Notes: a model not told the origin generated them from the letters alone. Counted from the first letter of the stretch, positions 4,997 to 22,242 are shown. The stretch is 32,000 bases of DNA from Candidatus Poseidoniaceae archaeon (GCA_943789275.1 CALSTM010000003.1:210001-242000), one strand, 5' to 3'. Numbers and translations are program-made.

Positions 4997-5151
4997 ACCA
5001 ACCTCCTTGTTTAGCGTTGAACTCCAAATGCGAGTTCACCTCGCCATCGGTAGGTTCATGTTTTGAACAAGCCCTAGGCTCTGAAACAACATCGTTGATT
5101 TTAGAAACATTATCAGCCGAATCATCCGTGAACAATCTTGAAGGTTAACCG

Positions 5152-7278: not shown

Positions 7279-7465
7279 GTGCTTGACTGTGAGGATTTAT
7301 TCCGATACCATGTCGTCCGGAAAAACTCGTTGCAACCCTTTGTACACCCATTAGTAAGCTTTTCACGCGTGGGTACCCATTCGTGAGATGCATGTGGGAT
7401 GGGTGTTGGGTGGGTATACAGTTTGCTTCAAGTAGGGTTTATCTACAGTTGCCAATGGTAAGGGT

Positions 7466-8713: not shown

Positions 8714-8763
8714 ATTGTATAAATTGGCTAATACATAATTAACAACCCAGTCTTAGCGTTGAC

Positions 8764-9534: not shown

Positions 9535-9674
9535 AAGAGGGGTCTTTCTACACAGCAACCTTGGAGACAGCTGAGGCAATGCTGACTGTAGAAGGGTCCA
9601 TCCATTTAAATCAATTTTTATTAGACTTGGAAGGCCGAATGGAAAGGGCTGAAACCTTCACAGTTGACACATGA
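9501..9674 (+). pseudogene. out-of-frame continuation of the NotI-like endonuclease (57 codons)
   Basis: A second frame is open from 9471. Read from ATG 9501 it gives MGDGDDSMFSLEEGSFYTATLETAEAMLTVEGSIHLNQFLLDLEGRMERAETFTVDT. It overlaps the last 34 nt of the main frame and fills the otherwise empty gap up to the recombinase stop. The NotI-like main frame (256 aa) is short for the family. Confidence 0.4.
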
Positions 9675-9678
9675 AAAG

Positions 9679-10471
9679 TTATTTTCTTCGATGCCAGGGC
9701 TTGCCTCCCCACCAAGGGGGGTGCTGAAACTTCAATCTCTTCATATGGAAATCATTACTGATTGTTCTAGTTATGGAATTACCTTGCCACTTCCCCCCTC
9801 GCTTACCCTTGATACCTCGCTTGTTGAGTGACCTAGCCAAAGCGGCAGTAGCCATGCCATTTTCATTAATTTGCCATGCCATGTAGTCGATGCAGTCTTG
9901 CTCAGTCCAATTGGGAACAAACATGCCATTCTCATCAACATCCCACCCAAAGATTGACTTCGTGAATTGTTTGTTTGTTGCTCGAAGTTGATTCATGGCT
10001 TCTACTGTTCGTTCTGAAATCAATCCTCTTTCCATTTCAGCGAGGGCGCCCATCAGTGTTAGAAAAAATCGACCCATCGTGGTTGAAGTATCTACAGCCT
10101 CACCGTTCAAATCCACAATGTGTAGATTGATATTTGCATCATTAAGTTCATCGATTGTTATCAAAACGTCTGTCGTCAATCTGAACATCCTATCTAATTT
10201 CATCGTAATGAGGTCGCTGTATTGGCCTGTGCTCAATCTTCGTTTGAGTATTCGACCTTTCGGCCTATCCCACAGTGGAATACCTCCACTCACACCTTCT
10301 TCGATAATGATGTCATCTGGACTGAGGTTCAATTTCTTGTATCTTACATATTCGAGAATTCTTCTCTTCTGAGCTTGTATGCTCACACCTTCATCCACCT
10401 GCCTCTGTGATTGAAACTCGAATGTAGGCTACGCTTTTTGCTCGTTGGTTAGGTTGATTATTATGCAACAT
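9679..10471 (-). pseudogene. serine recombinase (resolvase/invertase catalytic domain plus partial Recombinase domain), interrupted by a 1-nt frameshift just after the catalytic Ser codon
   Basis: The main frame 9679-10398 contains VDEGVSIQAQKRRILEY...GRFFLTLMGALAEMERGLISERT and IFGWDVDENG. It lacks the AxYxRVS catalytic strand, and an in-frame TAG sits at 10429-10431. A different frame from ATG 10471 reads MLHNNQPNQRAKSVAYIRVS. Deleting the single base at 10411 joins it to SQRQVDEGVSIQAQ, giving the canonical RVSSxxQxxxGxSxxxQ spacing. Confidence 0.8.
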
Positions 10472-10492
10472 TTCTGAAGATTGTGATACTTT

Positions 10493-10500
10493 CTATTTAA
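10493..10500 (-). promoter_or_regulatory. TATA-like box (TTAAATAG) for the recombinase, flanked by a 7-bp inverted repeat
   Basis: TTAAATAG on the minus strand ends 21 nt upstream of ATG 10471, consistent with a leaderless archaeal start. TTGTGAT (10481-10487) and ATCACAA (10504-10510) bracket it. Confidence 0.35.
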
Positions 10501-10528
10501 TACATCACAACGTCGGAAATTTCACGCA

Positions 10529-10742
10529 GTTGGAACAATCAACCAATCGTTAATCATAATTGCACATGGGTTCAAGCAAATAACCCTTGAAACATGTTGA
10601 TTGATTTTCAACGGTATGTTTGAACCCCTGTTTGAACAATCAACCAATCGATTAGGATAGGTTGCAAGGGGTTATCCGAAACCCCATTCAACTTCCAAAT
10701 CCGGTTTGAAGGGGATGCAGTCGGTCTGTTGGGTTCGCTACC
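10529..10742 (+). repeat. left copy of a ~210-bp imperfect direct repeat (partner at 20033-20246)
   Basis: It aligns by eye with 20033-20246 along its whole length. The alignment is strongest in the right ~145 bp, e.g. TTGAACAATCAACCAATCGATT / TTGAACCATCAACCAATCAATT, TATCCGAAACCC and GGTCTGTT.G.TTCGCTACC. It contains a ~20-bp motif three times: direct at 10531-10550, inverted at 10587-10614 and direct at 10631-10652. Confidence 0.85.
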
Positions 10743-11051
10743 GTTCCAACCATATACAGTCGCAAGGGCCCGCTTCCAACTTTTTTAAATGTATTATATT
10801 CACGCTATCCATCCAATTACTCTTGAGTGAATGGGGGCGTTGCGATTGGCATGACAAAAGTGCCTTTATATTGAAAAAATGATATTTCTACTCAATAACC
10901 TAATACAAATAGATGAAGAATCATTCTGAGGGTGGCAATCAGGAAGACCATGCAAAAGATACGGCAGAAATAACATGTTCAAGACCAACTTTATGGGCAT
11001 TAACGTTCTAGGTTCGCGGGCTGTAGCAACCCTCTATGAGGTTCAGTAATA

Positions 11052-11069
11052 TCTTTTGATGTCAAAAGA
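11052..11069. other. perfect 8-bp-arm palindrome TCTTTTGA-TG-TCAAAAGA followed by a T-rich run
   Basis: Read directly from the sequence. It lies in the 800-bp non-coding stretch, and GTTTGTTTGTT follows on the plus strand. Confidence 0.5.
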
Positions 11070-11178
11070 GTTTGTTTGTTCATTAAGTATTAAGCCACAA
11101 CCGGTATATAAAGAGGTGTACCCTGCTGGCCTGGTGACTTTTGAGCGTTCAATAGAAATAGATTTATTTCAGAAACAC

Positions 11179-11196
11179 CAATTAAAATTTTAATTG
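11179..11196. other. perfect 18-bp AT-only palindrome CAATTAAAATTTTAATTG just downstream of the 982-aa gene stop
   Basis: Read directly. It lies 12 nt beyond the stop codon (11208-11210) on the minus strand. It could be a terminator-like or protein-binding element. Confidence 0.45.
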
Positions 11197-11207
11197 AATA
11201 AATACGA

Positions 11208-14156
11208 TCATTCATTTTCTTCACTATCCGAAAGGTAACCATCCTTTAATTGACCCCACAGAAGGGACATTGCTGGTTTATCTTGATGTGTATTGATGTC
11301 CCTAAAAGTCGTGCTTGAAACGATCGTTCGGCCATCAAACACCACAGGGAATAAAACCAATCGACTCCATAAAATCCATTCTCGATCTGTGGTTTTACGT
11401 ATACGTTGGAAGGCACGTTCGATTGTTTCTTGTGTATTTGGTAATGTATTCGCACTCCCCGAAGGTGCATCCTCGTCGAAAACATCCAAAACATCCATCA
11501 GTTCCTCGTATTCTTCCGGGGTAAGTTCGTATGGGCCTTCGAATTTATTTGATAGCGGAGTCTGGATGAACGAAGTCCAATCTTCATAATGAATACCTTC
11601 AAAATTAAGTCGGGTTCGAGACTTCTCTAGTATTGAGACCATTGAACACTCAGGGCCTCTTCTCGGCAATCCGTTTGAGAGAAGATATTCGAGATCTAAA
11701 TCTCCACGGATCAGTTCTTTATCGTGGCGGTCATCAAACTTCAATGGATTGAAATGGATACCAAGATGTCCCTTCTGTTTTATGAGTATTTTTAATCTTG
11801 ATAATATGTCATCATTAATCTCACATTGATGAAGTTCAGGATTATTTTCAAAATAAGTTGCCTCGCTCTTCAGCCATTCACTGTGCATGAACTTCAAGAG
11901 AACGCGAACCTGATCGATAACCAGGACACTGCTGTCCTGATAAGGTTGGCGAAGTGGCTGTTCAAGCAACAAACGTGCGATCTGTTCAACACGGGCCGTG
12001 AGCACATACAAACGTGCAAACGAGACCCTCAACATCTGGTCGACAAGTTGAGCCTTGTCGTACAATTTTGAATCACCATCGTGCTGCAACACCCTCATCG
12101 GTGCCTGAGCAGCTTCTTGGGCCGCATGAATGATATCGTGAATGTGAATCGATTTCAAAGAAGACGGAAATCCACTGGTATCCACTGAAGATTGCCTTGC
12201 AGCACGATCAAGTCGGTCCTCAATATTGAATGGTGCTTGGTCAGCGATGAGATGTTCGATCAAATTCATCGAAGTCGCAGCAAACATGAGCGGGTCCATT
12301 CTATTGACGCGGTTGACATTTTTTCGGGAAAGAATGTTCTTTTTCAATTGAGCCTTAGTGTCGGCTGGCTCAGGAAGACGATGGCTCACAAAGGGCTTGT
12401 TGTTGGGGTTGCCTTTCAAATGACCAATGGAAAATTGTGGACGGTTTTTGACTGCGCCGCTGACTTTCCATGTGCTGTTTTTTCCCTCGTGATTGAACAT
12501 TTTTTCTAAATTTCCAAAGTAGTTGTTTTCATCTGGTTCTTTCAAAATCAATTGCATGTACGCCATCAAAATTGATATCTGCGATTGGTTGATAGAAGAT
12601 TGAGGGAAATATTGCAAATGTTTGGATTTGTGATTCTCTTCCACGCCCCAAATCCAACGAGGCAGAAGTCCCACTTTGGAGGTGAACGGATTTAATTCTC
12701 TTGGATCACCAATCAAACGGATTAATCTCCCGAGGCCGGATGGGTTGCCTTGCGAGGCAGATCTATCAAACATGTCATTCATGGATGCTTTTCTGAAGAG
12801 TCCTCTGATTCTTGCTGGACAATCCCTTTCATCGTCCCATCCCATCTCGATGTACTCCTCTATCAGTTTCGATTTTTGTTGAAAGTCTTCAGCATCGTCT
12901 TGTGAGATTTCCCCCTCTTTTACTTCCTTCTCGAAGTAATTCGGTTTAGACATCTCTAGGAGAATCGCCGGAACAATATTTGAGAGAAGGATACCCCTAT
13001 CTTGTTTAAGCTTGGAAAGAACCATTTCCTTCATCCAAGCATCGGTTGTTGTGACGGAATCAACAGCTTCTGTTAACTTTTCATACAAATCAATTATCTC
13101 AGTCGAAAATTCCAATCGAAGGGTGAGTTGGTTGATCGGGGGGTTATCATCATCGCCATTCGTAGCCGTCTGATCTTTTTTATCAGTCTTGACAAAAGGC
13201 CTTGTTTCGTTGACAAGATTGTGGCACATCACGCGCAAGGTGCTTTCGATGTGAAGCACAGACGAGATGTGCAATTTTCCGGCAGAATCCCGAATAAAAC
13301 TCCTGATTGCATTGAAAATGTTCTTGAGTTTGTCCTTGTCCGAGTTCTGTTCAAACTCTTTTAATGTTTGAGACGCTGCATTCTTTGAATTGAGGGTGAT
13401 TCTTTTGGAAATTTCAAACAGGGCGCGTATCCATAATTCTGCTTCAGTGGCATCTGCTTCTGTACTTGGTTGAATTTCGCTAAACAACAACGGACTGAAC
13501 GAAATTAAACCCTTGACATCCTCTGGCATGAATGCCTTTTCGTGGATTTTCAATTTCGAACCTTGCTTCGCCAGCATCAACGCTGGAGCGATCAAACCTC
13601 TTGCCCTCAACACCAATGTAGATTCATAGATGACCGCAATTTCCCACCAATTGACTGCAGATTCGGATTTGTTTTCTCGAATGATGGCATACCCCTTGTT
13701 GACGACAAAATTCGTTAATTCTTGATTGACTCGACAGTAGTCGCTAAGTTCATGCTGTGTGATTGTCGTTTTTTGGCCGGCGAGGGCTTCGGCACTGAGT
13801 TTACCGTTGAATGCGGTATTGATGCGGGCTATGATCCGGCGAAGGAGACAGATGTCATGCCATAGTTGAAAGGTTTTTTTTGAATGTTCAGCGTTATTCC
13901 ATTCCGAAACTTTGCGAATCGTTTCTTTGCTTAACTCAAGAAGTTCTCTTGTAAGTCGTTCAATTCGTGCTTTGGGCCGGTTGTGCACTGGTCCATTTGA
14001 TGAAGGTAGAACGCCATGTATGCAATCAACGATTGCGCTTGTAAGTGCGTTTGCTTCAAACAATACTGTGTGCGATTCACGGCCCATCATGTCCACTCTC
14101 ATGACGCCACATAACGTGAGTATATTTAAGCATGTTATGGTTGCATTCTCAAACAC
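11208..14156 (-). CDS. large hypothetical protein (982 aa in the longest frame), no recognisable domain; divergent partner of the NERD/SbcCD-like operon
   Basis: This is a long uninterrupted ORF in a low-GC stretch. I see no Walker A, nuclease or methylase motif, and the composition looks mostly alpha-helical. The likely true start is ATG 14102 (MRVDMMGRESH...), because a TATA-like box sits 18 nt upstream of it. Confidence 0.8.
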   Translation of the reverse strand: MFENATITCLNILTLCGVMRVDMMGRESHTVLFEANALTSAIVDCIHGVLPSSNGPVHNRPKARIERLTRELLELSKETIRKVSEWNNAEHSKKTFQLWHDICLLRRIIARINTAFNGKLSAEALAGQKTTITQHELSDYCRVNQELTNFVVNKGYAIIRENKSESAVNWWEIAVIYESTLVLRARGLIAPALMLAKQGSKLKIHEKAFMPEDVKGLISFSPLLFSEIQPSTEADATEAELWIRALFEISKRITLNSKNAASQTLKEFEQNSDKDKLKNIFNAIRSFIRDSAGKLHISSVLHIESTLRVMCHNLVNETRPFVKTDKKDQTATNGDDDNPPINQLTLRLEFSTEIIDLYEKLTEAVDSVTTTDAWMKEMVLSKLKQDRGILLSNIVPAILLEMSKPNYFEKEVKEGEISQDDAEDFQQKSKLIEEYIEMGWDDERDCPARIRGLFRKASMNDMFDRSASQGNPSGLGRLIRLIGDPRELNPFTSKVGLLPRWIWGVEENHKSKHLQYFPQSSINQSQISILMAYMQLILKEPDENNYFGNLEKMFNHEGKNSTWKVSGAVKNRPQFSIGHLKGNPNNKPFVSHRLPEPADTKAQLKKNILSRKNVNRVNRMDPLMFAATSMNLIEHLIADQAPFNIEDRLDRAARQSSVDTSGFPSSLKSIHIHDIIHAAQEAAQAPMRVLQHDGDSKLYDKAQLVDQMLRVSFARLYVLTARVEQIARLLLEQPLRQPYQDSSVLVIDQVRVLLKFMHSEWLKSEATYFENNPELHQCEINDDILSRLKILIKQKGHLGIHFNPLKFDDRHDKELIRGDLDLEYLLSNGLPRRGPECSMVSILEKSRTRLNFEGIHYEDWTSFIQTPLSNKFEGPYELTPEEYEELMDVLDVFDEDAPSGSANTLPNTQETIERAFQRIRKTTDREWILWSRLVLFPVVFDGRTIVSSTTFRDINTHQDKPAMSLLWGQLKDGYLSDSEENE
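14121..14129 (-). promoter_or_regulatory. TATA-like box TTAAATATA for the 982-aa gene
   Basis: On the minus strand, TTAAATATA is followed by 18 nt and then ATG 14102. This spacing fits an archaeal leaderless transcript. Confidence 0.4.
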
Positions 14157-14268
14157 ATTAAGGTTGCATCTGCGCTCAGATTTAGAAAGTCATAAACGAA
14201 AAAATCAATGCTAAGGATTGAAAATATGTTAGCACAGGTTTCATTAACTGGGACCAATTGGCAAACTC

Positions 14269-14892
14269 GTGCGAACACAGTCAGAGTTCAGAAAGCTTCG
14301 TCGAGAAATGGCGCCTTACGTGGAAGTCATTGCAAAAATTGGTGCAACTACGGTCAAATCGATCTTCGATGATGTGTGGAACAAAGAGGAAAAGGATATC
14401 GGATTCGAAGAAGACGATGCTTGGATGTCTCGATTTCTTGCAAAAATGGTCATTGATGATCTCATCGAAGACCAAGAGCAGTCCCGAACCCCCAAAGACG
14501 TTACACTTCTACATCAAAACATAGTGGAATCGATGGCGACTGTATTGCTTCAATGCCTCAAAACTCGAGCGATCATCGTTGAAGGCTATGTTCCATCGAT
14601 GACGACAGAATACGTGGTCTCTGAGTTCGTGAAGATGGCTATCAATGATTCAAATCTGGACCGCGCTATAATTGCATGGCGCTTATTGGAGGATCTTTCG
14701 ATGAGCTTTGGGCCAGCTATGCGGCGGTTAGCTCCTATTTTTACGTTAGCCAGGGAAGAAGTATCGGAATCCAAGGATCCTTCCTATGGTACGTTTGTTT
14801 TGATCGCAAATCTCACAGATCGCAGGATTGATCAAATGATTCTGAGGAAAATCGCGGCTGACGATACGGAAGAAGGGTGGTGGTGCGCATGA
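14269..14892 (+). CDS. hypothetical acidic helical protein, first gene of the operon
   Basis: 207-aa ORF with a GTG start at 14269 and an alternative ATG at 14308. Its stop overlaps the next gene's start as ATGA. No motif recognised. Confidence 0.65.
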   Translation: MRTQSEFRKLRREMAPYVEVIAKIGATTVKSIFDDVWNKEEKDIGFEEDDAWMSRFLAKMVIDDLIEDQEQSRTPKDVTLLHQNIVESMATVLLQCLKTRAIIVEGYVPSMTTEYVVSEFVKMAINDSNLDRAIIAWRLLEDLSMSFGPAMRRLAPIFTLAREEVSESKDPSYGTFVLIANLTDRRIDQMILRKIAADDTEEGWWCA

Positions 14893-16166
14893 TGAACATT
14901 TTCACAAATATTGGATGGTATCTCAGGGCTTCTAAAGAACGGAAAAAGCCATCCGATGGAATGCGCATTGCTGCTGAGAAGGCCGAGCTGGACGTCTTGG
15001 ACGCAATCGAGGAGATGCCCGGGGTCATTTCGGCTTGGCATGCGATCAGAATTCAAGATCCCACTCGCCGAATTGGTGCGGGCGAAGTCGATGTTATGGC
15101 CTTAACGAACAAGGGATTCGTTTGCATTGAAGTCAAGCACTGGACAGGAGCGGTTCAAATGATGGATGGAGACATTGTTCAAGAGAAGTTGCAAAAGAAA
15201 CGCCCTGTTTTTGAACCCCTCGAGAAGAAGGCCGTACATCTCAAGCGATGTGCTCAAACCCTGATTCAGGATGATGCGCTCGAGGTAATTACGCTCGTCG
15301 TTTTGACAAACCCTAATGCGAAAGCCAGTCATGATGTCTTGCAACACCCCAGAGTAGCGACGTTGAAGTCCCTCTCCGAGAAAATCAATCGCGGGTTCAG
15401 CGACCACGAACCGCTCAGCACCCACACACTGAACAATTACACTCAACTAGCCGCTTGTTTCGGCACTTGGGATTCGCTGGGATATGAAGGAGGCGCAACG
15501 CACATCGGCGATTTTGATGATCAGTTGATGCCACAAGAGTGGAGCAGAGACAAATATCAAGACATCGAGATTTCTATCGCTCATGGATTTTGGAAAACCA
15601 TTTTCTCAGGCCCGAAACTATCGATCCGCCTCACGGGCTGGGATGGCAAGGTAACGGTGGAGAACCTCACTCCGCCACTGCTCATCAAACACACCTCACC
15701 ATGGGAGAACGGTGGGATTGACAACAAGGGACATTATCCTGTCTCTTATCTTCGAACCATAACTTATGGTTTCCAGTACGACGCTTTTGGAGAGCATCAC
15801 GCACGGCGACTCGAGATGAACCTTCAATATCCGACAGAAGAACCATCCATCAGTCTTGGCAAAGAAGTACATTTGAAGCGCAAACACAACGATGCTGGGC
15901 GCCCACCGAGGATCGACTATTCGCAAAAATTCTCACCGGGGAGTCGTCACAAAGGCACCATTGTCAGGCATCTCAAAGACGAGGATGGCAACGTTTACGC
16001 GATGCTTGTGGCACTCGTTGAGCGGAAGGTCAAAGGACGGATTCGAATCCGCGACTTAGACGCTGTTCATCCAGACCTTTTCGATAGGGCTTATGGCGTT
16101 GGGACCCCGCTGGACGTGAGGATTAAAAGCTATACAAGCCCAAAGAAGATCGACCTACACATCTAA
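14889..16166 (+). CDS. NERD-domain (PD-(D/E)xK-like) nuclease with a tentative C-terminal S1/OB-like domain
   Basis: The NERD pattern is GEVDVMALTNKGFVCIEVKHWTG with flanking AEKAELDVLDAI and PLEKKAVHLKR. The C-terminal ~80 aa, GSRHKGTIVRHL...GNVYAMLVAL...KGRIRIRDLD...GTPLDVRIKSY...KIDL, resembles an S1 fold. ATG 14889 overlaps the upstream stop; the track start is 14877. Confidence 0.8.
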   Translation: MMNIFTNIGWYLRASKERKKPSDGMRIAAEKAELDVLDAIEEMPGVISAWHAIRIQDPTRRIGAGEVDVMALTNKGFVCIEVKHWTGAVQMMDGDIVQEKLQKKRPVFEPLEKKAVHLKRCAQTLIQDDALEVITLVVLTNPNAKASHDVLQHPRVATLKSLSEKINRGFSDHEPLSTHTLNNYTQLAACFGTWDSLGYEGGATHIGDFDDQLMPQEWSRDKYQDIEISIAHGFWKTIFSGPKLSIRLTGWDGKVTVENLTPPLLIKHTSPWENGGIDNKGHYPVSYLRTITYGFQYDAFGEHHARRLEMNLQYPTEEPSISLGKEVHLKRKHNDAGRPPRIDYSQKFSPGSRHKGTIVRHLKDEDGNVYAMLVALVERKVKGRIRIRDLDAVHPDLFDRAYGVGTPLDVRIKSYTSPKKIDLHI

Positions 16167-16167
16167 T

Positions 16168-16284
16168 ATGGAAGTGAAAAATATGAACATGAATAAAGAA
16201 ACAGAAGAAGCGAACATGGGGATTCCTCGGAAACCCCATGCGATTTTGACGACCTTGATATATAGTGGGCAGGGGGTTTGTTGA
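16168..16284 (+). CDS. possible 38-aa micro-ORF bridging the NERD and phosphoesterase genes
   Basis: ATG 16168 lies 1 nt after the NERD gene's TAA. It translates as MEVKNMNMNKETEEANMGIPRKPHAILTTLIYSGQGVC. Its TGA (16282-16284) overlaps ATG 16284 of the next gene as TGATG. It is below the 60-aa track cutoff. Confidence 0.3.
   Translation: MEVKNMNMNKETEEANMGIPRKPHAILTTLIYSGQGVC
16215..16240 (+). other. hairpin CATGGGG-(12 nt)-CCCCATG carrying the GGGG..TCC..GAAACCCC motif also present in both flanking repeats
   Basis: A 7-bp perfect stem read directly. The related motif occurs at 10668-10685 (GGGGTTATCCGAAACCCC) and 20175-20191 (GGGGGTATCCGAAACCC). Confidence 0.5.
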
Positions 16285-17414
16285 TGAGCATCAAGATTCT
16301 CGCAACCGGCGATTTTCAGTTGGATAAGACGTTTGGAACGCTTGGCGAATACGCAGGAGCCTTCCGCCAGCAACTTATGGCCACCTTCAAGCACGTGATG
16401 CTTGAAAGCACCAAAGATCATGACATCGTCCTCATTGCTGGAGACCTTTTTGACCGAATGGGAACGCCGATTCACATCATTCAAGAGGTCGCTGAAACTC
16501 TTGCAAAATGCCCGATTACGTGCGTCGTCCTCCCTGGAAACCACGATCCTGTCATCAGCGGAATCCCGAAGGCATTGAGCGAGGCTCTGAAAGCCAAGAA
16601 TGCAAGTCACGTCCATGTGGCGTTGAAGCGTGAGCCAATCCATTTCGAAGCGCTTGGAATGACATTGTATCCGGCGCCGCTCTTTCGTAAGGATGACATC
16701 TCAAACCAATACGCTTGGATTCCAGCGCGAAAAGATGGAGATGGGTTACGCGTAGCCCTCATGCACGGAGCTCTTACCACCCTGCCGAACGGGCTGATTC
16801 CTGAAGATGTCGCCAATCAGATGGACCTCGACCTCGTAATTTGCGGAGATCAACACGGTCCTTTATCGGGAGATTCTGAGGCTTCACCACTGTTTAACCT
16901 TGCAACTTCGAAAGCTCGTCGCTTGTATTACGCAATGGCTCCCGAGGCACAAAACATCAGTCAGAACTTCACGGGAAGCGTTCTGAGTCTTGAGGTGGAC
17001 GATGCTCATGCAGTCATGGATGCATCGAGAATCGATGTCGGCGTCTTGCGCTTTGTAAACGGCAGCGTAAACTTCGCTGGTGAGAGCGACATTGAGGGGC
17101 AACTTGCTCCATTCTTCGAACCGTACAACGAGCAGCAGCCTGGACTGGTAAGTCTTCGGCTTGAACTCACAGGCGAAATCACACGCGATGAGTCGGTTGC
17201 ACTGCAGGCTCAACTGGAAAACCTTCGGCAGCAATGGCCGCTTCTCGATGTGAAGAATCTGGTTGCCGTTCCTCAGGAGGATGCTGAACTCGCAGGTCCT
17301 GAAAACCCCCTCCAAACAATGATCCAAGATGCCCTTCATGCTTCTGATGCTTCTGAAGAAATACGAGCCAAAGTCATTGAGTTGCTACCAATTATCATCG
17401 GGAGGTGCGACTAA
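16284..17414 (+). CDS. SbcD/Mre11/YhaO-like calcineurin-type metallophosphoesterase with non-canonical motifs I and VI
   Basis: Motifs in order are ATGDFQLD (canonical DxH), AGDLFD (GDxxD), LPGNHD (GNHD), LMHGA (H) and CGDQHG (canonical GHxH). The C-terminal LRLELTGEI region is like the SbcD/YhaO capping domain. The stop overlaps the next start as TAATG. Confidence 0.8.
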   Translation: MSIKILATGDFQLDKTFGTLGEYAGAFRQQLMATFKHVMLESTKDHDIVLIAGDLFDRMGTPIHIIQEVAETLAKCPITCVVLPGNHDPVISGIPKALSEALKAKNASHVHVALKREPIHFEALGMTLYPAPLFRKDDISNQYAWIPARKDGDGLRVALMHGALTTLPNGLIPEDVANQMDLDLVICGDQHGPLSGDSEASPLFNLATSKARRLYYAMAPEAQNISQNFTGSVLSLEVDDAHAVMDASRIDVGVLRFVNGSVNFAGESDIEGQLAPFFEPYNEQQPGLVSLRLELTGEITRDESVALQAQLENLRQQWPLLDVKNLVAVPQEDAELAGPENPLQTMIQDALHASDASEEIRAKVIELLPIIIGRCD

Positions 17415-20023
17415 TGCTCAAAAATATCGAACAATTAATTGTCCGAGACATCCGAAAATGGGACGGTGAACACACGTTCGATTTCCATGAGGGAGTCACT
17501 GTTCTTCACGGCCAAAACGGACGGGGCAAGACGACTCTAAACACTGCGTTAATGCTCACACTCGTGTTTTCTGCCAATTCGAACGGACTTCAGCAGGATC
17601 TCACACCTCGAAATGGTGGATCCCCGCGGTCCAGTGTGATTTTCTCGACACAAGATGGACGGCGATTCAGAATCAGCAAAACATGGGGCGACAGAAACCA
17701 ATCTCGTCTTTTCGATGCCGACACAAATGAAGAACTTGCACGTGGAGGGGACGCCGAAGATCAAACTCGAGAATTGGCCTTCGGAATTCCGCCATCCAGC
17801 GGCCGGTACAGCGCCAGAAATGGGTTGGTCGCTAATCTCGAGCAAACGATCGAAAACTACGTTGCAACCCTCTCCTTCTATTCACAGGGGAGCCTCCATA
17901 TCGCCCCAAAAATGGGCGAGGCCCTAAGAAACATTGGCCTCGTAGCGGACGAAGCAGAACGAGCACGAGGCTTTACTGCAATCAGTCTTGTGGCCAAAAC
18001 TGAGTCTCAAGGACTCATTTCGGGAGTGACAAACGCAGGGTTGCCAAGGGCAAATGCAACTGGGAGAGTAATCAATCAGCAGAAGGTGCTCGATAACATC
18101 CGTGCTGAAATTCAGCAAGCTCGCGAAACCGAAGCAGACTTGATCGAGGCTGAATCAAATCTGTTTGTAATGACGGATGAGGTTGACGAGGACATCAATG
18201 AAGAAACTCGGCAACAGAAAGCGGATTTGATTCGAGGCTTTACTCAAGATGCGGCCAATCACCGGGCAGAGCGGGAAGCAGCACGCGTCCTTCATGATCA
18301 ATCAAAGGAAACCCATGACCCACTCAAAGTCATGAACGATGAGCGGAAGCGACTCATCAAAACCGCCCGCGATGATGCGAAGAGTTTGAGAGGTCTCGGG
18401 CAAAAGGAGAACCATGCTCGAGAAAAGTTCGAACAGTCAGAAGCGTTACATGCGTTGAAGTTACAAGAGAAAGACACTCATTCTTTAGAACTTGAAAACA
18501 TCAAACTCTGGCAACTCTACCTCACTCAAGAAGAGCGGAATCAAGAACAAAGGGTTGCACTCGGCAAAGCCATTGAACATCGTAACAACCACGAGGAAGG
18601 GCTCGTATACCAGGCAACGCTCCAACAGCAACGAGATCATCTCCAGTTAGCGAGTGACGAACAGTGGACAAAAATCAAGGATTATGATGCACAAATTGCT
18701 GCTGCAAAGGCAGAAAGGACCATGAAGATCAAGATCGGAACACTCCCAAAGAATTGGGTTGTCGAAGGCGATGGCTTGCCCCTCCAAGAGGATGGTTCAG
18801 CTTCAGAAAGCATCGAAGTCCGGGACAAAGACGGCATGGTTTTGGAAGTGCGGCAAGCCATGGATGGTGCGTCACCCACCGAACTTGAACTCTTGAAAAA
18901 TGAAGTGCTTGGAGAACTAAAGGCTACATCAACAAGTGAGCTCCGCCAACGGCAAGACGAAGCAACTCGGTTAAAAACTGAAATTGATGTAAGCAAGCGA
19001 TCGTTGGCAATGCTTCCTCTGACCACTGAACTCGATGCCATCATCGCCGAGCTCAAGGCCAAAATCGAAACAGAAGTGACGCAACCAGACCTTCCACTGC
19101 CTGAAGGAGACTTGCGCGATGAAGGTGTCCGTATTACTGAACGGGTACGGCTCGCAGAAAAGGCGCTGGAAGCCGTTCGTGAAGCACGGACACAGGCGCA
19201 AGCTGATTACATCACCTCGAACACAAGGCTCGTCGATGCGACAACCGTATGGAATGAAATTCTTTCAACGCTGGAGGAGCATCGTACCACCTACGGGACT
19301 GACGAGGATGTAGCTCAACAATTAACTCAAGCATCTCAAGACTTAGAAACAAAGGCTGCGGTGTGGAATGGATTTGTTGAAAATAAGGAACTACGGGAGG
19401 ATGCACCCGAAAAGAAGGCAACAAATCTCCAGCGATCACTCGACGCTTATGATCAACAACGGAACGGACTGATTCGCCTTCAAGAGCGAGTGGTTCTGTT
19501 GAGAAGCAACCCTCTCTTACAACGTCTTCCGGATTTGGAAGCAGCACTCCATGTTGAGGCCGATGAGTTGGCACGGCTCCAATTGGAATACGAAGCATAC
19601 GACTTGATTCAGAAATTAGCGGAGCAAGCTGGCGTGGCTGCTCAACAACTCGCTCGCAATGAAACTACAGAACGAATGCACCGTTTGCTGAACTATGTCT
19701 GGGGAGTGGATGCTGACTTGACCTTTGCCGAGGACGGTGCACCCATTCAAACCCGCCAAATAAACATCAAAGATGAATCGCATGGAACCAAGGAGCAACT
19801 CCAAACAATTCTTCGCTTGGTACTGCTTTCAACCGCAGCAGAGAATGGTACAACGATGCTGCTGGATGATGCGCTTGTCTTCTCCGATGATGGGCGATTA
19901 AACAGAATGAAGGATGTGCTCCAGGTCGAGAGCAACGCCGGTATGCAATTGATCATCTTCACATGTCGGCCGGAGGATTACGTAGACATCGCTGATGAAA
20001 TCATCAATCTGGACGACTTTTGA
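17414..20023 (+). CDS. SbcC/Rad50/YhaN-like coiled-coil ABC-type ATPase lacking a zinc hook
   Basis: Walker A is GQNGRGKTT. Long heptad-like Glu/Gln/Arg/Lys-rich arms follow. The C-terminal signature-like sequence is SHGTKEQLQTILRL, and Walker B/D-loop is TMLLDDALVFSD. GGAGGTG lies 9 nt upstream of ATG 17414; the track start is 17405. Confidence 0.85.
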   Translation: MLKNIEQLIVRDIRKWDGEHTFDFHEGVTVLHGQNGRGKTTLNTALMLTLVFSANSNGLQQDLTPRNGGSPRSSVIFSTQDGRRFRISKTWGDRNQSRLFDADTNEELARGGDAEDQTRELAFGIPPSSGRYSARNGLVANLEQTIENYVATLSFYSQGSLHIAPKMGEALRNIGLVADEAERARGFTAISLVAKTESQGLISGVTNAGLPRANATGRVINQQKVLDNIRAEIQQARETEADLIEAESNLFVMTDEVDEDINEETRQQKADLIRGFTQDAANHRAEREAARVLHDQSKETHDPLKVMNDERKRLIKTARDDAKSLRGLGQKENHAREKFEQSEALHALKLQEKDTHSLELENIKLWQLYLTQEERNQEQRVALGKAIEHRNNHEEGLVYQATLQQQRDHLQLASDEQWTKIKDYDAQIAAAKAERTMKIKIGTLPKNWVVEGDGLPLQEDGSASESIEVRDKDGMVLEVRQAMDGASPTELELLKNEVLGELKATSTSELRQRQDEATRLKTEIDVSKRSLAMLPLTTELDAIIAELKAKIETEVTQPDLPLPEGDLRDEGVRITERVRLAEKALEAVREARTQAQADYITSNTRLVDATTVWNEILSTLEEHRTTYGTDEDVAQQLTQASQDLETKAAVWNGFVENKELREDAPEKKATNLQRSLDAYDQQRNGLIRLQERVVLLRSNPLLQRLPDLEAALHVEADELARLQLEYEAYDLIQKLAEQAGVAAQQLARNETTERMHRLLNYVWGVDADLTFAEDGAPIQTRQINIKDESHGTKEQLQTILRLVLLSTAAENGTTMLLDDALVFSDDGRLNRMKDVLQVESNAGMQLIIFTCRPEDYVDIADEIINLDDF

Positions 20024-20032
20024 GGCAAAACC

Positions 20033-20246
20033 TCTTGTTACATCCACCAACCAATTAATCTCCATGATTTCGAATGGGTTTTTGCACCGACCCCATCGAA
20101 CAGATTGATTGGTTTGAACGGTGTGAAAATTCACCATGTTGAACCATCAACCAATCAATTCGGATGCGTTGGAAGGGGGTATCCGAAACCCTATCCAACT
20201 GGAAAAGTCGTTGGAAGGGTTTTCAGTGGGTCTGTTTGTTCGCTAC
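20033..20246 (+). repeat. right copy of the ~210-bp imperfect direct repeat (partner at 10529-10742)
   Basis: It begins ~10 nt after the ATPase stop and ends 7 nt before the stop codon of the convergent aconitase-family gene. The motif copies lie at 20041-20060 (direct), 20097-20121 (inverted) and 20138-20160 (direct). Confidence 0.85.
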
Positions 20247-20253
20247 CCTCTGC

Positions 20254-22242
20254 TCAGTTGAACAGGCCTTCATTCCACGACGTGATACTTCCTGTGAAAG
20301 CAGATGCAGCAACAGTAAGTGGGCTTGCAAGGTAGAGTTTTCCAGGCCCAGAACGTCCTTGGAAATTACGATTGATTGCGGAGACGGTCACTTGTTCAGG
20401 CGTGATGGAAACTCCAGGGCCTGCACCAATACATGCCCCACAACCCGGGTCGATGAGTTTGACACCAACTCGGCCGAACAAATCGTGCCAGCCTTCGCGA
20501 ACAGCCAAATCTTTGACGAGACCTGATCCATATTGAATGTAGAAATCAACACCGTCCTTGACCACGAGACCTGCTTCTTCAGCTGCTTTACACACTTGAG
20601 CATAGTAAGCAACATCGTCTGCTTTACCAGCAGTACACGAGCCACCATAGGCGATATCGATGGTGACGCTACCGATATCAGCAACATTCGCTCCATTGGT
20701 CGGGTCGCTTGGAATGCCTTTGTTCGGGTCGCCTGGGTGTGCGACCATCGGTTGAATTTCAGACATGTTGATGATGTGGACTCCCCCGTCATAATGAGCG
20801 TCTTGGTCAGGATGTACGGCAAGTCCTTTCTGAGTCTCAAGGTCAAGGTGCGGTTGGGCAGCAATCATCCAGTCATACAGCAGGTCATCCGCTTCACAAA
20901 TCCCCGTACGGCCTGAACATTCTGTTGCCATGTTGCACAAGGTCGCTCTTTCATCAATGGACAAACCTGCGAGGCCAGAGCCGCCGAATTCCATGCTGCG
21001 ATTCAAGGTGAGTTCCTTGCGAGCGTGGTCGGCAAGGATGAACAGAATGACGTCTTTCGCAGTGCAACCCTTGGCAAGTGTGCCTTGCAGTTCGAATCGG
21101 ATTGATTCAGGGACCTTGACAAACGTGAATCCTGCACTGATGAGGTTGGCGTATTCAGTTGCGCCTACACCCCATGTCAAGGCATTCGAAGCGCCACCCA
21201 TGCAGGTGTGGGAGTCGGTGGCTTGGATGAAATCACCAACTTCGATAAACTCTTCACGCGCCACTTGATGGCAAATACCAGGAGAAACGCCGTCTTTGGC
21301 AGAATAATCACGAACTTTCGTGTGCTGCTGGAATGCAATTTGTAAATCTCTCAACGTTTGTACCTTGTCCATGAATGGAACAAACTTTGGATTGTGATGG
21401 GCATAGAGCAAATGGTCTTCAAACACGGCGAACTTTCCAGGGTTTGGTAATGCGTACCCCTCTCCGTATTCTTCTTGTAAGAAGGTATGAACTTGGGCGG
21501 TGGTAAATTCGTGTGAATAGCCACCTTGAACTTGGGCGATAACCGGGTCTTCAGGTTTGACACACTGCCCGTCATCTTGACCGACAAGGTTCCGAGCAAT
21601 GATTTTCTCAGCCATAGTCATTGGTCGGGGTGGCGTGTTGATAGCAGGCAGTTCGATGTCTCCAGATTTTAGAGATTTAGCAAACGGAAATAATCCACCT
21701 TTCTCAAGAATAATTTGAGTGACTTCATCGTAACGCGAGGTGAACTCTTCCAAAGCGATTTCTTCACCGTTTTGAAGCCGTTCAAGCATTGCATGGTCGC
21801 CCATGATTTGACCGAGATTGATGTTGTTCCGTTCATGAATTGGGGCAAAAGAGGCGGCGATGACGATGTTTATTCCTGCCCAGCGTTCACACTGAGCGGC
21901 GGTTTCTCTCGAGGAGCCCGTTCCCTTTCGTTGTCCAGAGACAATCGCTTCGAAGTTTCCATTTTTGAGGGCGTTTTCACTGAAGACTCTTAGGCCATTA
22001 TGCATCAATCCAGCATAGGCGTTTTTAGCAATTTCAGCCGGGTCATGGTCGAAACAGACCCATGCAGGCGTCATGACATCGGTATTAATATCGTCAAGCA
22101 AGTCATCAACGGTGAGGTCTTTCATGTTGAGATTAAGACCATCATACAATTGCTGTTTGATGAGACTGAGGTCTTTTGTAAGGAAAAGAACCCTTTTTTC
22201 AGGGTTTAGAGCAACTTTTTCCGGTGGCCACTGGTCTCTCAT
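20254..22242 (-). CDS. aconitase-superfamily hydratase/dehydratase with the swivel (LeuD-like) domain at the N-terminus
   Basis: The N-terminal GTGSSRETAAQCERWAGINIVIAASFAPIHERNNINLG is swivel-domain like. Catalytic domains follow with Fe-S ligand contexts TDSHTCMGG, GGSCTAGK and PGCGACIG. Confidence 0.85.
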   Translation of the reverse strand: MRDQWPPEKVALNPEKRVLFLTKDLSLIKQQLYDGLNLNMKDLTVDDLLDDINTDVMTPAWVCFDHDPAEIAKNAYAGLMHNGLRVFSENALKNGNFEAIVSGQRKGTGSSRETAAQCERWAGINIVIAASFAPIHERNNINLGQIMGDHAMLERLQNGEEIALEEFTSRYDEVTQIILEKGGLFPFAKSLKSGDIELPAINTPPRPMTMAEKIIARNLVGQDDGQCVKPEDPVIAQVQGGYSHEFTTAQVHTFLQEEYGEGYALPNPGKFAVFEDHLLYAHHNPKFVPFMDKVQTLRDLQIAFQQHTKVRDYSAKDGVSPGICHQVAREEFIEVGDFIQATDSHTCMGGASNALTWGVGATEYANLISAGFTFVKVPESIRFELQGTLAKGCTAKDVILFILADHARKELTLNRSMEFGGSGLAGLSIDERATLCNMATECSGRTGICEADDLLYDWMIAAQPHLDLETQKGLAVHPDQDAHYDGGVHIINMSEIQPMVAHPGDPNKGIPSDPTNGANVADIGSVTIDIAYGGSCTAGKADDVAYYAQVCKAAEEAGLVVKDGVDFYIQYGSGLVKDLAVREGWHDLFGRVGVKLIDPGCGACIGAGPGVSITPEQVTVSAINRNFQGRSGPGKLYLASPLTVAASAFTGSITSWNEGLFN

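What the first reader, a model, noticed from the sequence alone, without database searches (positions are those of the whole stretch)
14269..20023. Candidate undescribed system: tightly coupled operon of acidic protein, NERD nuclease, micro-ORF, variant SbcD-like phosphoesterase and hook-less SbcC-like ATPase
All junctions are coupling-type: ATGA at 14889-14892, TAA-n-ATG at 16164-16170, TGATG at 16282-16286 and TAATG at 17412-16. This indicates co-translation as one unit. The combination is not the canonical archaeal herA-mre11-rad50-nurA repair operon, because there is no HerA or NurA and the Rad50-like protein has no zinc hook. I also cannot match it to Wadjet (no JetA/B/D-like Toprim), Lamassu, Gabija or Septu layouts. 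The location suggests a defence or foreign-DNA surveillance role: it is repeat-bracketed and sits next to an R-M unit and a recombinase in an AT-rich island. One possible model has an SMC-like DNA sensor or clamp, two different nucleases (PD-(D/E)xK and phosphoesterase) and unknown partners. That role is inference.
Basis: partly seen in the sequence, partly recalled or inferred. Interest (0 to 1): 0.85.

Follow-up and report, generated by a model that had tools for sequence, protein, structure and literature searches.

The report
Mobile SbcCD-like nuclease cassette, marine archaeon
A marine Group II archaeon carries, inside a 15-kb inserted genomic island, a rare and mobile six-gene cassette built around a zinc-hook-less relative of the SbcCD/Mre11-Rad50 DNA-end nuclease plus a second (NERD) nuclease and two unknown proteins; it is probably a foreign-DNA surveillance system, but that role is untested.

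Summary
The ORFs, junctions and domain calls are real. The unit is larger than reported. It includes the divergent 960-982-aa gene (11208-14090, minus strand). The cassette recurs in at least 10 independent marine metagenome loci. Its order is 982-like | 207-like, NERD, short ORF, phosphoesterase, ATPase.

It is accessory. In most of 80 related Poseidoniaceae genomes the two flanking genes lie directly adjacent, and none carries the 15.2-kb insertion. Near-identical cassettes sit beside different neighbours.

No Pfam, NCBIfam or PADLOC model names the system. The phosphoesterase-ATPase core is not unique, though. It belongs to a large unnamed hook-less SbcCD-like superfamily (1,269 clusters at E<=1e-10). 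Bacterial plasmid members share its odd D-x-Q and TCR motifs.

The NERD protein keeps its D...ExK site and ends in an S1/OB domain. The 207-aa gene is hypervariable and the accessory genes are swapped between clades. The micro-ORF is conserved in position but not in sequence.

Best reading: an SbcCD-derived defence-type system (about 0.5). Main rival: an accessory SbcEF-like repair or recombination module (about 0.3). It is a new variant of a known kind.

The parts
11208..14090 (-). 960-aa protein (982 aa if read from GTG 14156). It is all-alpha and solenoid-like, of unknown function, and divergently transcribed from the operon. It is the most constant partner of the cassette.
   Evidence: Twelve homologue clusters only, none with a Pfam domain. 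It lies next to the operon in L001, L002, L003, L090, L091, L101, L105, L106 and the P0019 contig. AF2 gives mean pLDDT 57, with residues 1-445 mostly at 70-90 and all helical. No significant fold match in PDB or BFVD; the best E is 0.04, to generic TPR/HEAT solenoids. No Pfam, PADLOC, NCBIfam or PHROG hit.
14091..14268 (.). Divergent intergenic region between the 982-aa gene and the operon; presumed bidirectional promoter region.
   Evidence: Sequence read. Function is inferred only; no archaeal promoter tool was available.
14269..14892 (+). 207-aa acidic protein (pI 4.76). It is fast-evolving or swapped, and carries a conserved acidic 'DD-x-W' patch near residues 45-55.
   Evidence: No family hit. 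Window versus L009: 44% aa identity, while NERD, phosphoesterase and ATPase are 88, 87 and 93%. Nucleotide identity is about 57% here against 82-100% in the rest of the operon, with a sharp break near 14900-14980. Counterparts of 189-246 aa stand first in the operon in every clade.
14889..16166 (+). 425-aa nuclease: N-terminal NERD (PD-(D/E)xK) domain, a central beta-rich domain and a C-terminal S1/OB-fold nucleic-acid-binding domain.
   Evidence: PF08378 at E=3.6e-10. D68, E81 and K83 are invariant in 19 homologues down to 23% identity. AF2 gives pLDDT 82 and pTM 0.77. Foldseek matches the C-terminal roughly 80 residues to ribosomal protein S1, Tex and exosome S1 domains (E=3e-4, probability 1.0, rmsd 2.4-3.4 A).
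16168..16284 (+). 117-nt spacer holding a 38-aa ORF (the 'micro-ORF'). Its coding status is unresolved. Its 3' half travels with the phosphoesterase-ATPase module.
   Evidence: An ORF of 33-64 aa with a stop overlapping the phosphoesterase start is called in L006, L009, L091, L002-L004 and the P0019 contig, but the sequences are unrelated between clades. Window versus L009 shows 3 differences, 1 synonymous and 2 non-synonymous. In L106 a recombination breakpoint lies inside this spacer.
16284..17414 (+). 376-aa SbcD/Mre11-like metallophosphoesterase with motif I D-x-Q (GDFQLD), GDLFD, GNHD, MHG and GDQHG, plus a C-terminal domain.
   Evidence: PF00149 at E=1.1e-12. TIGR00619 sbcd scores 29.7 bits against a cut-off of 77.65. 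The family profile hits E. coli SbcD at 6e-15 and T. maritima and archaeal Mre11 at 1e-11 to 1e-8. D10, D54, D57, N86, H87, H161, D189 and H191 are invariant, and Q12 is present in at least 90%, in archaeal plus bacterial members.
17414..20023 (+). 869-aa SMC/Rad50/SbcC-like ABC ATPase without a zinc hook. Features: Walker A GQNGRGKTT, Q-loop SQG, signature ESHGTKEQ, Walker B LLDDA, a 'FTCR' tail, and a central non-helical segment at about 438-490.
   Evidence: There are 13 close clusters. A profile search finds 1,269 clusters at E<=1e-10. Among 117 full-length representatives of the top 150, 0 have a central CxxC, 73 have S.GT.EQ and 80 have TC[RH].
20037..20262 (.). Right copy of a roughly 226-nt repeat with internal inverted CAACCAATCRAT subsites. 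It lies inside the 3' end of the shared cassette.
   Evidence: It is 99% conserved at the same place in L091, where homology to the window ends at 20249. RNA fold z = -2.4.
10527..10752 (.). Left copy of the same repeat. It lies just outside the shared cassette, between the serine recombinase gene and the 982-aa gene.
   Evidence: L100 is 99% identical to the window down to 10739 and then diverges. Fold z = -2.8.
9679..10398 (-). Serine recombinase (resolvase/invertase type, 239 aa). This is context and a possible mobiliser.
   Evidence: PF00239 at 4e-23 and PF07508. PHROG integrase at 1.5e-41. A 46%-identical homologue lies 5.8 kb downstream of the cassette in L001.
5014..20250 (.). 15.2-kb genomic island holding an MFS transporter, an N6/N4 DNA methyltransferase with a SAP domain, a 256-aa unknown, the recombinase and the cassette. 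It is inserted between the topo VI B gene and an aconitase-family gene.
   Evidence: In most of the 80 related Poseidoniaceae genomes the two flanking genes are about 100-900 nt apart, and none of the island genes is present. The closest genome, L010 (96-99% aa identity), replaces the island with about 105 nt.

Best explanation
The cassette (about 10739-20249) is an accessory, horizontally moving, SbcCD/Mre11-Rad50-derived nucleoprotein machine. It most likely polices foreign or aberrant DNA in a Poseidoniaceae (marine Group II) archaeon.

Proposed working (inferred):
1. The 376-aa phosphoesterase and the 869-aa hook-less ATPase form an SbcCD-like complex. Its ATP-driven head engagement recognises DNA ends, hairpins or other non-chromosomal DNA structures.
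2. The phosphoesterase cuts there. The NERD-S1 protein supplies a second PD-(D/E)xK nuclease that is tethered to nucleic acid by its OB domains.
3. The hypervariable acidic 207-aa protein and the 960-aa alpha-solenoid act as specificity, regulatory or scaffold subunits.

Shown:
- Domain identities and conserved catalytic residues.
- Conserved gene order and junctions.
- Rarity, island location and different flanks.
- Modular exchange of the accessory genes.

Inferred: complex formation, substrate, and the defence role itself.
For: Accessory and mobile.
- The 15.2-kb island is absent from all 80 related species genomes at the syntenic site.
- The ATPase and 982-aa families have only 13 and 12 clusters in 5.8e9 proteins, all from metagenome sources.
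- Cassettes 98-99% identical to the window have different neighbours: a membrane protein in L091, HNH plus HTH genes in L100 and a photolyase-like gene in L101.

Conflict-type evolution.
- The first gene is 44% identical where the rest is 87-93%.
- NERD is replaced by unrelated 278-aa and 211-aa (HEAT-like) proteins in L002/L003.
- The phosphoesterase-ATPase pair is replaced by a 612-aa protein in L090.
- L106 is a mosaic with a breakpoint in the NERD-phosphoesterase spacer.

Neighbourhood.
- An adjacent methyltransferase and serine recombinase lie in the window.
- Bacterial relatives of the pair sit next to type III R-M plus PDC-S06, Bil plus UvrD-nuclease, and Abi/AbiE genes.
- A marine relative (L096) sits beside genes with weak Cas10-like and CARF hits.

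Active-looking enzymes.
- NERD D68/E81/K83 are invariant.
- Phosphoesterase metal ligands are kept except for H to Q in motif I.
- The ATPase motifs are intact.

Precedent.
- Lamassu is proposed to have evolved from SbcCD by adding effectors upstream of an SbcD-derived subunit and an SbcC-like ATPase (PMC12663957).
- NERD nucleases are embedded in BREX type 2 PglW (PMC12839542).
Against: - There is no experimental evidence of any kind.
- No component reaches a defence-system profile threshold.
- The nearest characterised hook-less analogue, B. subtilis SbcE/SbcF, is a repair and competence factor (PMC2811018).
- Three of six bacterial plasmid contexts inspected show no defence neighbours: L094, L108 and L109.
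- One cassette lies beside a T7-type RNA polymerase gene on what may be a mobile element. In that setting an SbcCD-like module could serve the element's own replication.
- No relative was found on IMG/VR viral contigs.
- The 982-aa and 207-aa proteins have no assignable function.
Confidence: 0.5

Rival explanations
1. It is an accessory DNA repair or recombination module of the SbcEF (YhaN/YhaO) type. A hook-less SbcC-like ATPase and an SbcD-like nuclease process breaks, hairpins or incoming DNA for the host. Alternatively they serve the plasmid- or virus-like element that carries them. NERD acts as an auxiliary end-processing nuclease.
For: - Architecture matches SbcE/SbcF: an SbcD-like nuclease next to an SMC-like ATPase that lacks CxxC and has its own central domain, with a role in double-strand-break repair and competence (PMC2811018).
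- The bacterial relatives are annotated 'DNA repair exonuclease / AAA family ATPase'. They occur as bare two-gene modules on large plasmids and chromids, including among metabolic genes.
- The best sequence relatives with structures are SbcD, Mre11 and Rad50.
- The P0019 contig carries a T7-type RNA polymerase next to the cassette, which hints at a mobile element with its own DNA transactions.
Against: - A repair module does not obviously need a hypervariable first gene, swappable accessory genes or a second nuclease.
- It is extremely rare and island-borne within a well-sampled lineage.
- Pfam AAA_27, the YhaN-type N-terminus, is not matched by the window ATPase. Bacterial relatives match it only over about 50 residues.
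Confidence: 0.3
2. It is a divergent member of the Lamassu family. NERD-S1 would be LmuA (effector plus C-terminal domain), the phosphoesterase would be LmuC, and the ATPase would be a long LmuB.
For: - The gene order matches lmuA-lmuC-lmuB: effector, then SbcD-related protein, then SbcC-like ATPase.
- The V. cholerae Lamassu LmuB has no zinc hook.
- Long LmuC resembles the SbcD C-terminal domain, and Lamassu is proposed to derive from SbcCD (PMC12663957).
- There are weak LmuB profile hits (PADLOC E=5e-4 for the window ATPase; 2.8e-14 for a bacterial relative, N-terminus only).
Against: - The LmuB hits cover only the Walker A region.
- The phosphoesterase is a full-length enzyme with conserved metal ligands. 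LmuC, as described, is a small DNA-binding protein or an SbcD C-terminal remnant.
- The NERD protein's C-terminal part is an S1/OB fold. The fold search returned no Lamassu chain.
- Two further conserved genes (207 aa, 982 aa) have no Lamassu counterpart.
Confidence: 0.08
3. It is the host's housekeeping Mre11-Rad50 equivalent, in a diverged form.
For: It shows homology to SbcD/Mre11 and Rad50. Archaea normally need such a complex.
Against: - It is absent from the syntenic locus of 80 related species, including a relative whose flanking genes are 96-99% identical.
- The family has 13 clusters, none from NCBI genomes.
- Identical cassettes have different flanks.
- L001 carries split or frameshifted copies.
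Confidence: 0.03

Closest known systems
SbcCD / Mre11-Rad50 DNA-end and hairpin nuclease complexes
   Same: - A calcineurin-type phosphoesterase sits directly upstream of, and overlaps, a long coiled-coil ABC ATPase.
- Motifs II-V of the nuclease are kept, as are Walker A, Q-loop, signature and Walker B of the ATPase.
- The best solved relatives are E. coli SbcD (6e-15) and P. furiosus Rad50 (6e-5).
   Different: - There is no zinc hook.
- Motif I is D-x-Q rather than D-x-H.
- The signature is S-x-G-T-x-E-Q, Walker B is h-h-h-D-D, and a T-C-R tail replaces the H-loop His.
- Scores lie far below the NCBIfam cut-offs.
- It is accompanied by NERD, 207-aa and 982-aa genes.
- It is island-borne and rare.
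SbcE/SbcF (YhaN/YhaO) of Bacillus subtilis
   Same: An SbcD-like nuclease is paired with an SMC-like ATPase that lacks CxxC and has a family-specific central domain (PMC2811018).
   Different: - SbcEF is a conserved chromosomal repair and competence factor of Gram-positive bacteria.
- No AAA_27 match for the window ATPase.
Unnamed 'DNA repair exonuclease + AAA family ATPase' pairs on alphaproteobacterial plasmids (for example Sphingopyxis NZ_CP012701, Bradyrhizobium NZ_CP066352, Rhizorhabdus pSWIT02)
   Same: - Same sizes (about 370 and 875-890 aa) and the same overlap of the two genes.
- Same D-W-Q-L-G-K motif I, G-D-W-H-G motif, LSxGTQEQ signature, LDDPLVYSDD Walker B and LTCR tail.
- No CxxC.
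- The phosphoesterase is 24-26% identical over 88-99% of its length.
   Different: - They are bacterial.
- They are usually a bare pair, without NERD, 207-aa or 982-aa partners.
- Function is untested, and their contexts are mixed.
Lamassu (LmuA-LmuC-LmuB / DdmABC)
   Same: - An SMC/SbcC-like ATPase has an SbcD-related partner and an upstream nuclease effector.
- The gene order is the same.
- It is proposed to descend from SbcCD.
- It senses DNA ends (PMC12663957).
   Different: - Here the SbcD-like subunit is a complete, apparently active phosphoesterase.
- The effector C-terminus is an S1/OB fold.
- LmuB profiles match only the P-loop region.
NERD nuclease domains of BREX type 2 PglW and MADS MAD6
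   Same: It shares a NERD PD-(D/E)xK domain (PADLOC PglW 7.6e-5; NCBIfam MAD6 4.9e-6).
   Different: There are no kinase domains. The scores are far below the cut-offs (25 bits against 460), so the similarity is at domain level only.

Membership tests
SbcCD / Mre11-Rad50 | Nuclease subunit with the five calcineurin-type phosphoesterase motifs, including D-x-H in motif I | tested here: inconclusive
   Motifs II-V are conserved. Motif I is D-x-Q in at least 90% of 12 archaeal and bacterial members.
SbcCD / Mre11-Rad50 | Zinc hook (C-x-x-C) at the coiled-coil apex of the ATPase | tested here: not met
   No C-x-x-C in 13 of 13 family members, and none in the central third of 117 full-length superfamily representatives.
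SbcCD / Mre11-Rad50 | Curated family score (NCBIfam sbcd, SbcD, Rad50 and Mre11 equivalogs) | tested here: not met
   TIGR00619 scores 29.7 bits against a cut-off of 77.65. Rad50 PRK02224 scores 18.9 against 1087.
Archaeal herA-mre11-rad50-nurA operon | HerA helicase and NurA nuclease genes adjacent to mre11-rad50 | tested here: not met
   None of the cassette proteins hits HerA or NurA models. The neighbours are NERD, 207-aa and 982-aa proteins.
SbcE/SbcF (YhaN/YhaO) | Hook-less SMC-like ATPase with its own central domain, paired with an SbcD-like nuclease | tested here: met
   No CxxC. A conserved non-helical central segment lies at about 438-490. The gene is adjacent to an SbcD-like gene. 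The family definition is taken from PMC2811018.
SbcE/SbcF (YhaN/YhaO) | Sequence membership (Pfam AAA_27 N-terminal domain, or orthology to B. subtilis YhaN) | tested here: not met
   No AAA_27 hit for the window ATPase. Bacterial relatives match only positions 1-50 of 206. Direct comparison with YhaN could not be run.
Lamassu | LmuB-type SMC ATPase matched over its length | tested here: not met
   PADLOC LmuB hits are limited to residues 24-53 or 10-58, at E 5e-4 to 1.6e-3.
Lamassu | LmuA effector with the family's C-terminal LmuB/LmuC-binding domain | tested here: inconclusive
   The NERD protein's C-terminus is an S1/OB fold. No Lamassu chain appears among the PDB Foldseek hits. A negative Foldseek result is weak evidence.
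Wadjet (JetABCD) | Kleisin JetA, KITE JetB and Toprim JetD partners | tested here: not met
   No PADLOC Jet hits for any cassette protein.
Gabija / Septu / PARIS (OLD-family ABC ATPases) | Full-length match to GajA, PtuA or AriA, with a Toprim, HNH or UvrD partner | tested here: not met
   Only the first roughly 60 residues match (E 1e-6 to 9e-3). No such partner is present.
BREX type 2 / MADS | PglW or MAD6: NERD followed by protein kinase domains, with PglZ, PglX and other partners | tested here: not met
   Only the NERD domain matches: PglW 18.7 bits, and MAD6 25.3 bits against a cut-off of 460. The model shows no kinase fold.

The most novel reading that the evidence does not exclude
The cassette is a previously unrecognised immune system of marine Group II archaea. 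It keeps an intact SbcD-type nuclease and a hook-less SbcC-type ATPase, and has recruited a NERD-S1 nuclease, a hypervariable acidic subunit and a 960-aa solenoid. That would make it a living intermediate between SbcCD repair complexes and Lamassu-type 'detect-and-kill' systems. By extension, the large unnamed D-x-Q/T-C-R superfamily on bacterial plasmids (at least 1,269 clusters) would be an overlooked class of SMC-like anti-foreign-DNA modules.
Probability: 0.2. Interest if true: 0.8.

Novelty: new variant of a known kind. Interest (0 to 1): 0.6.

Why it matters
Marine Group II archaea are abundant and uncultured, and their means of dealing with viruses and plasmids are poorly known. A conserved, mobile, multi-nuclease cassette would give a concrete candidate to test.

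SMC-like complexes (Wadjet, Lamassu, Rad50, Smc5/6) are emerging as sensors of foreign DNA. This cassette has a complete SbcD-like nuclease, a hook-less ATPase and exchangeable accessory genes. It would bear on how repair machines are converted into immune machines.

The work also exposes a large bacterial plasmid-borne sister family with the same unusual active-site motifs. No profile library consulted here names that family.

Tried and rejected
- Pfam, PADLOC, NCBIfam and PHROGs on the 207-aa, 38-aa and 982-aa proteins gave nothing.
- Rfam on the whole window gave no hit, and ARAGORN found no tRNA, so there is no tRNA-type attachment site.
- The IMG/VR scan with the ATPase profile found no relative. 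The phage collection gave one weak partial hit.
- The repeat was tested as an empty-site attB. It is not present at the uninterrupted site of relatives. Partial copies occur elsewhere, in L052 and L055. A simple attL/attR reading is therefore not supported.
- The micro-ORF was tested as a conserved peptide and rejected as unproven. The spacer is not a clear outlier of nucleotide conservation: it falls in the top 10% of windows and lies next to a 100%-identical stretch.
- A leaderless internal promoter (TTGATATATA about 25 nt upstream of the phosphoesterase ATG) was considered. It was not adopted, because genes here carry Shine-Dalgarno-like motifs, this one included.
- The 278-aa and 211-aa proteins of L002 were tested as divergent NERD. 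hhalign probability was 0.1-0.2%, so this was rejected.
- Genomes lacking topo VI downstream of the aconitase-family gene were checked for alternative islands. They show rearranged synteny with transporter genes, not defence islands.
- Literature searches for NERD+SbcCD defence, COG4717 and 'SbcCD-like defense island' found nothing relevant. Krishnan et al. 2020 on ABC ATPases was not held.

Full report
**1. Observation**

The five ORFs exist as described, and the junction sequences are exact:
- ATGA at 14889-14892
- TAA-T-ATG at 16164-16170
- TGATG at 16282-16286
- TAATG at 17412-17416

The likely starts are ATG 14889, ATG 16284 and ATG 17414. Each follows a GGAGG/GGGGG-like motif of the kind seen before housekeeping genes of this window.

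Profile searches confirm the following:
- NERD: PF08378, 3.6e-10.
- Calcineurin-like phosphoesterase: PF00149, 1.1e-12, with a weak SbcD subfamily hit of 29.7 bits against a cut-off of 77.65.
- An ABC ATPase whose N-terminus resembles SMC and Rad50.

The first protein has pI 4.76. The ATPase has one cysteine and no C-x-x-C. The same holds for all 13 family members.

**2. The real unit is larger and conserved**

The ATPase has only 13 homologue clusters among 5.8 billion proteins, all from ENA, Logan or JGI metagenomes. Their contigs show the same cassette: a divergently transcribed 920-1030-aa protein, then a small first gene, NERD, a short ORF, the phosphoesterase and the ATPase.

The 982-aa protein of the window (11208-14156; probably 960 aa from ATG 14090) has 12 homologue clusters. 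It is 29-98% identical to these partners.

Four architectures occur:
- **A.** 982 | 207, NERD, short ORF, phosphoesterase, ATPase. Seen in the window, L091, L101, L009, L006 and the contigs of P0005 and P0019.
- **B.** 996 | 189, (54), 278, 211 (HEAT-like), 64, phosphoesterase, ATPase. Seen in L002-L005. The 278-aa and 211-aa proteins are unrelated to NERD.
- **C.** 924 | 63-aa HTH, NERD (split), phosphoesterase, ATPase (frameshifted). Seen in L001.
- **D.** 930 | 225, NERD, 612-aa unknown, with no phosphoesterase or ATPase. Seen in L090.

**3. Host and island**

Flanking genes identify a Poseidoniaceae (marine Group II) archaeon. In most of the 80 related species genomes, the aconitase-family gene (window 20254-22242) is followed within about 100-900 nt by topo VI B. 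None of the 80 carries any gene of window 5152-20023. The closest genome, L010 (96-99% aa identity in flanking genes), aligns up to window 5013 and resumes at 20251, with about 105 nt in between.

The window therefore holds a 15.2-kb insertion. It contains:
- an MFS transporter (53-56% GC);
- an N6/N4 methyltransferase with a SAP domain, a 256-aa unknown, a serine recombinase and the 982-aa gene (38-44% GC);
- the operon (about 50% GC).

**4. Mobility of the cassette**

- L091 is 98% identical to window 10909-20249 and then continues into a different gene.
- L100 is 99% identical down to window 10739 and then continues into HNH-like and HTH genes.
- L101 has a photolyase-like gene 34 nt after the ATPase.

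A roughly 226-nt repeat brackets the cassette (10527-10752 and 20037-20262; 79% identity). It contains CAACCAATCRAT subsites in a + - + arrangement. The right copy is inside the shared cassette and the left copy is just outside it.

The repeat is absent from the empty site of relatives and from L100, L101 and L009. Partial copies occur elsewhere in Poseidoniaceae genomes. Its role is open: recombination site, miniature element or terminator-like structure (fold z -2.4 and -2.8).

A 46%-identical serine recombinase accompanies the cassette in L001.

**5. Components**

*Phosphoesterase.* The family profile's best solved relatives are E. coli SbcD (6e-15), T. maritima Mre11 (1e-11) and archaeal Mre11. 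D10, D54, D57, N86, H87, H161, D189 and H191 are invariant. Motif I reads D-x-Q rather than D-x-H in at least 90% of members.

*ATPase.* It has Walker A, a Q-loop, the signature E/L-S-x-G-T-x-E-Q, Walker B h-h-h-D-D and a T-C-R tail. A conserved non-helical central segment stands in place of a hook.

*NERD protein.*
- D68, E81 and K83 are invariant in 19 homologues.
- The AF2 model (pLDDT 82) shows NERD, a beta-rich middle domain and a C-terminal S1/OB fold (Foldseek 3e-4, probability 1.0).

*982-aa protein.* It is an alpha-solenoid in its confident N-terminal half and has no significant fold match.

*207-aa protein.* It matches no family. It evolves or is exchanged much faster than its neighbours: 44% against 87-93% aa identity, and about 57% against 82-100% nucleotide identity, with a sharp breakpoint near 14900-14980.

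*Micro-ORF.* It is conserved in position only. In L106 a recombination breakpoint lies within this spacer. It joins a 36-37%-identical 982/NERD module to a phosphoesterase start that is 100% identical in nucleotides.

**6. The core pair belongs to a large unnamed superfamily**

A profile of the ATPase against 1.84 billion representatives finds 3,282 proteins at E<=1e-3 and 1,269 at E<=1e-10. Most are 860-920 aa and matched end to end. Among the 117 full-length representatives in the top 150:
- none has a central C-x-x-C;
- 73 have S-x-G-T-x-E-Q;
- 80 have T-C-R/H.

The phosphoesterase matches 112 plasmids, mostly alphaproteobacterial, over 64-99% of its length (at least 80% in 83 of the 112; 88-99% among the best hits). 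These are annotated 'DNA repair exonuclease' next to an 'AAA family ATPase'. The bacterial pairs share D-W-Q-L-G-K, G-D-W-H-G, LSxGTQEQ, LDDPLVYSDD and LTCR, and they have no hook.

No NCBIfam, Pfam or PADLOC model reaches its threshold for them. Their contexts are mixed:
- type III R-M plus PDC-S06 in Sphingopyxis;
- Bil plus UvrD-nuclease in Bradyrhizobium;
- Abi and AbiE in Rhizorhabdus;
- replication genes in Croceibacterium;
- metabolic or toxin-antitoxin neighbours in Rhizobium and Paroceanicella.

A marine relative (L096) lies beside genes with weak Cas10-like and CARF hits.

**7. Mechanism**

The best-supported reading is an SbcCD-derived surveillance machine.
- The phosphoesterase-ATPase pair would recognise and cut DNA ends or hairpins.
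- NERD-S1 would be a second nuclease anchored to nucleic acid.
- The hypervariable acidic protein and the solenoid would be specificity, regulatory or scaffold subunits.

All steps beyond domain identity, residue conservation, synteny and mobility are inference.

The main rival is an accessory SbcEF-like repair or recombination module. B. subtilis SbcE lacks CxxC, has its own central domain, pairs with SbcD-like SbcF and acts in repair and competence (PMC2811018).

A Lamassu affiliation is attractive in outline. The gene order matches, and Lamassu is proposed to derive from SbcCD (PMC12663957). However, it fails the profile and fold tests available here. The housekeeping reading is close to refuted.

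**8. Verdict**

- The cassette as a whole is undescribed, rare and mobile, and it has hallmarks of conflict systems.
- Its enzymatic core is a member of a widespread, unnamed, hook-less SbcCD-like family.
- The defence role is untested.

Novelty: a new variant of a known kind. Interest: 0.6.

Noticed in passing
window 5014-20250: The whole stretch is a 15.2-kb insertion between the topo VI B gene and an aconitase-family gene, two genes that are direct neighbours in most of 80 related Poseidoniaceae genomes. It is compositionally composite: the MFS gene has 53-56% GC, the R-M/recombinase/982-aa part 38-44%, and the operon about 50%.
   Followed up: yes
window 10527-10752 and 20037-20262; also L052:641-755 and L055:69-114: A roughly 226-nt repeat carries three CAACCAATCRAT subsites (+ - +) and a long internal hairpin (fold z -2.4 to -2.8). 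It is dispersed in Poseidoniaceae genomes and absent from the empty site. No Rfam family matches it. Its nature is unknown: recombination site, miniature element or RNA.
   Followed up: partly
contig of P0019 (JGI 3300072015, 25.8 kb; no DNA available): A cassette of type A lies next to a 1,345-aa protein with a T7-type single-subunit RNA polymerase domain (PF00940), a 748-aa methyltransferase and a ThiF-like gene. This may be a plasmid- or virus-like element of marine archaea.
   Followed up: no
L106:1-420 versus window 15990-16405: This is a mosaic cassette. The 982-like and NERD genes are only 36-37% identical to the window. From the 3' half of the NERD-phosphoesterase spacer onward the DNA is about 100% identical. 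The breakpoint lies inside the 'micro-ORF' spacer.
   Followed up: partly
L001:4148-5412 and 6924-9551: In the 438-kb contig the NERD gene is split into two ORFs and the ATPase C-terminus lies in other frames. This is either decay of the cassette or frameshift errors of a long-read assembly.
   Followed up: no
window 7466-8713 and 8764-9534: The N6/N4 DNA methyltransferase carries a C-terminal SAP DNA-binding domain (2e-8). It is followed by a 256-aa protein with an acidic insert and no family match. That protein is presumably the cognate restriction enzyme, but this is unverified.
   Followed up: no
L092-L095, L108, L109 (alphaproteobacterial plasmids): These plasmids carry hook-less SbcCD-like pairs with the same D-x-Q and T-C-R motifs. 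NCBI annotates them only generically. There are 112 plasmid records, 66 of them Rhizobium. No curated family model reaches its threshold.
   Followed up: partly
L096:5335-14194: Next to a distant relative of the phosphoesterase-ATPase pair lies a minus-strand gene cluster. It shows weak Cas10-like (3.6e-6), CARF (6.6e-9; 3.1e-5) and JAB hits, so it may be a cyclic-nucleotide signalling defence locus.
   Followed up: no
L090:3739-5577: In one clade the phosphoesterase-ATPase pair is replaced by a 612-aa protein. It has no P-loop and no family match, and it follows the 225-aa and NERD genes.
   Followed up: no
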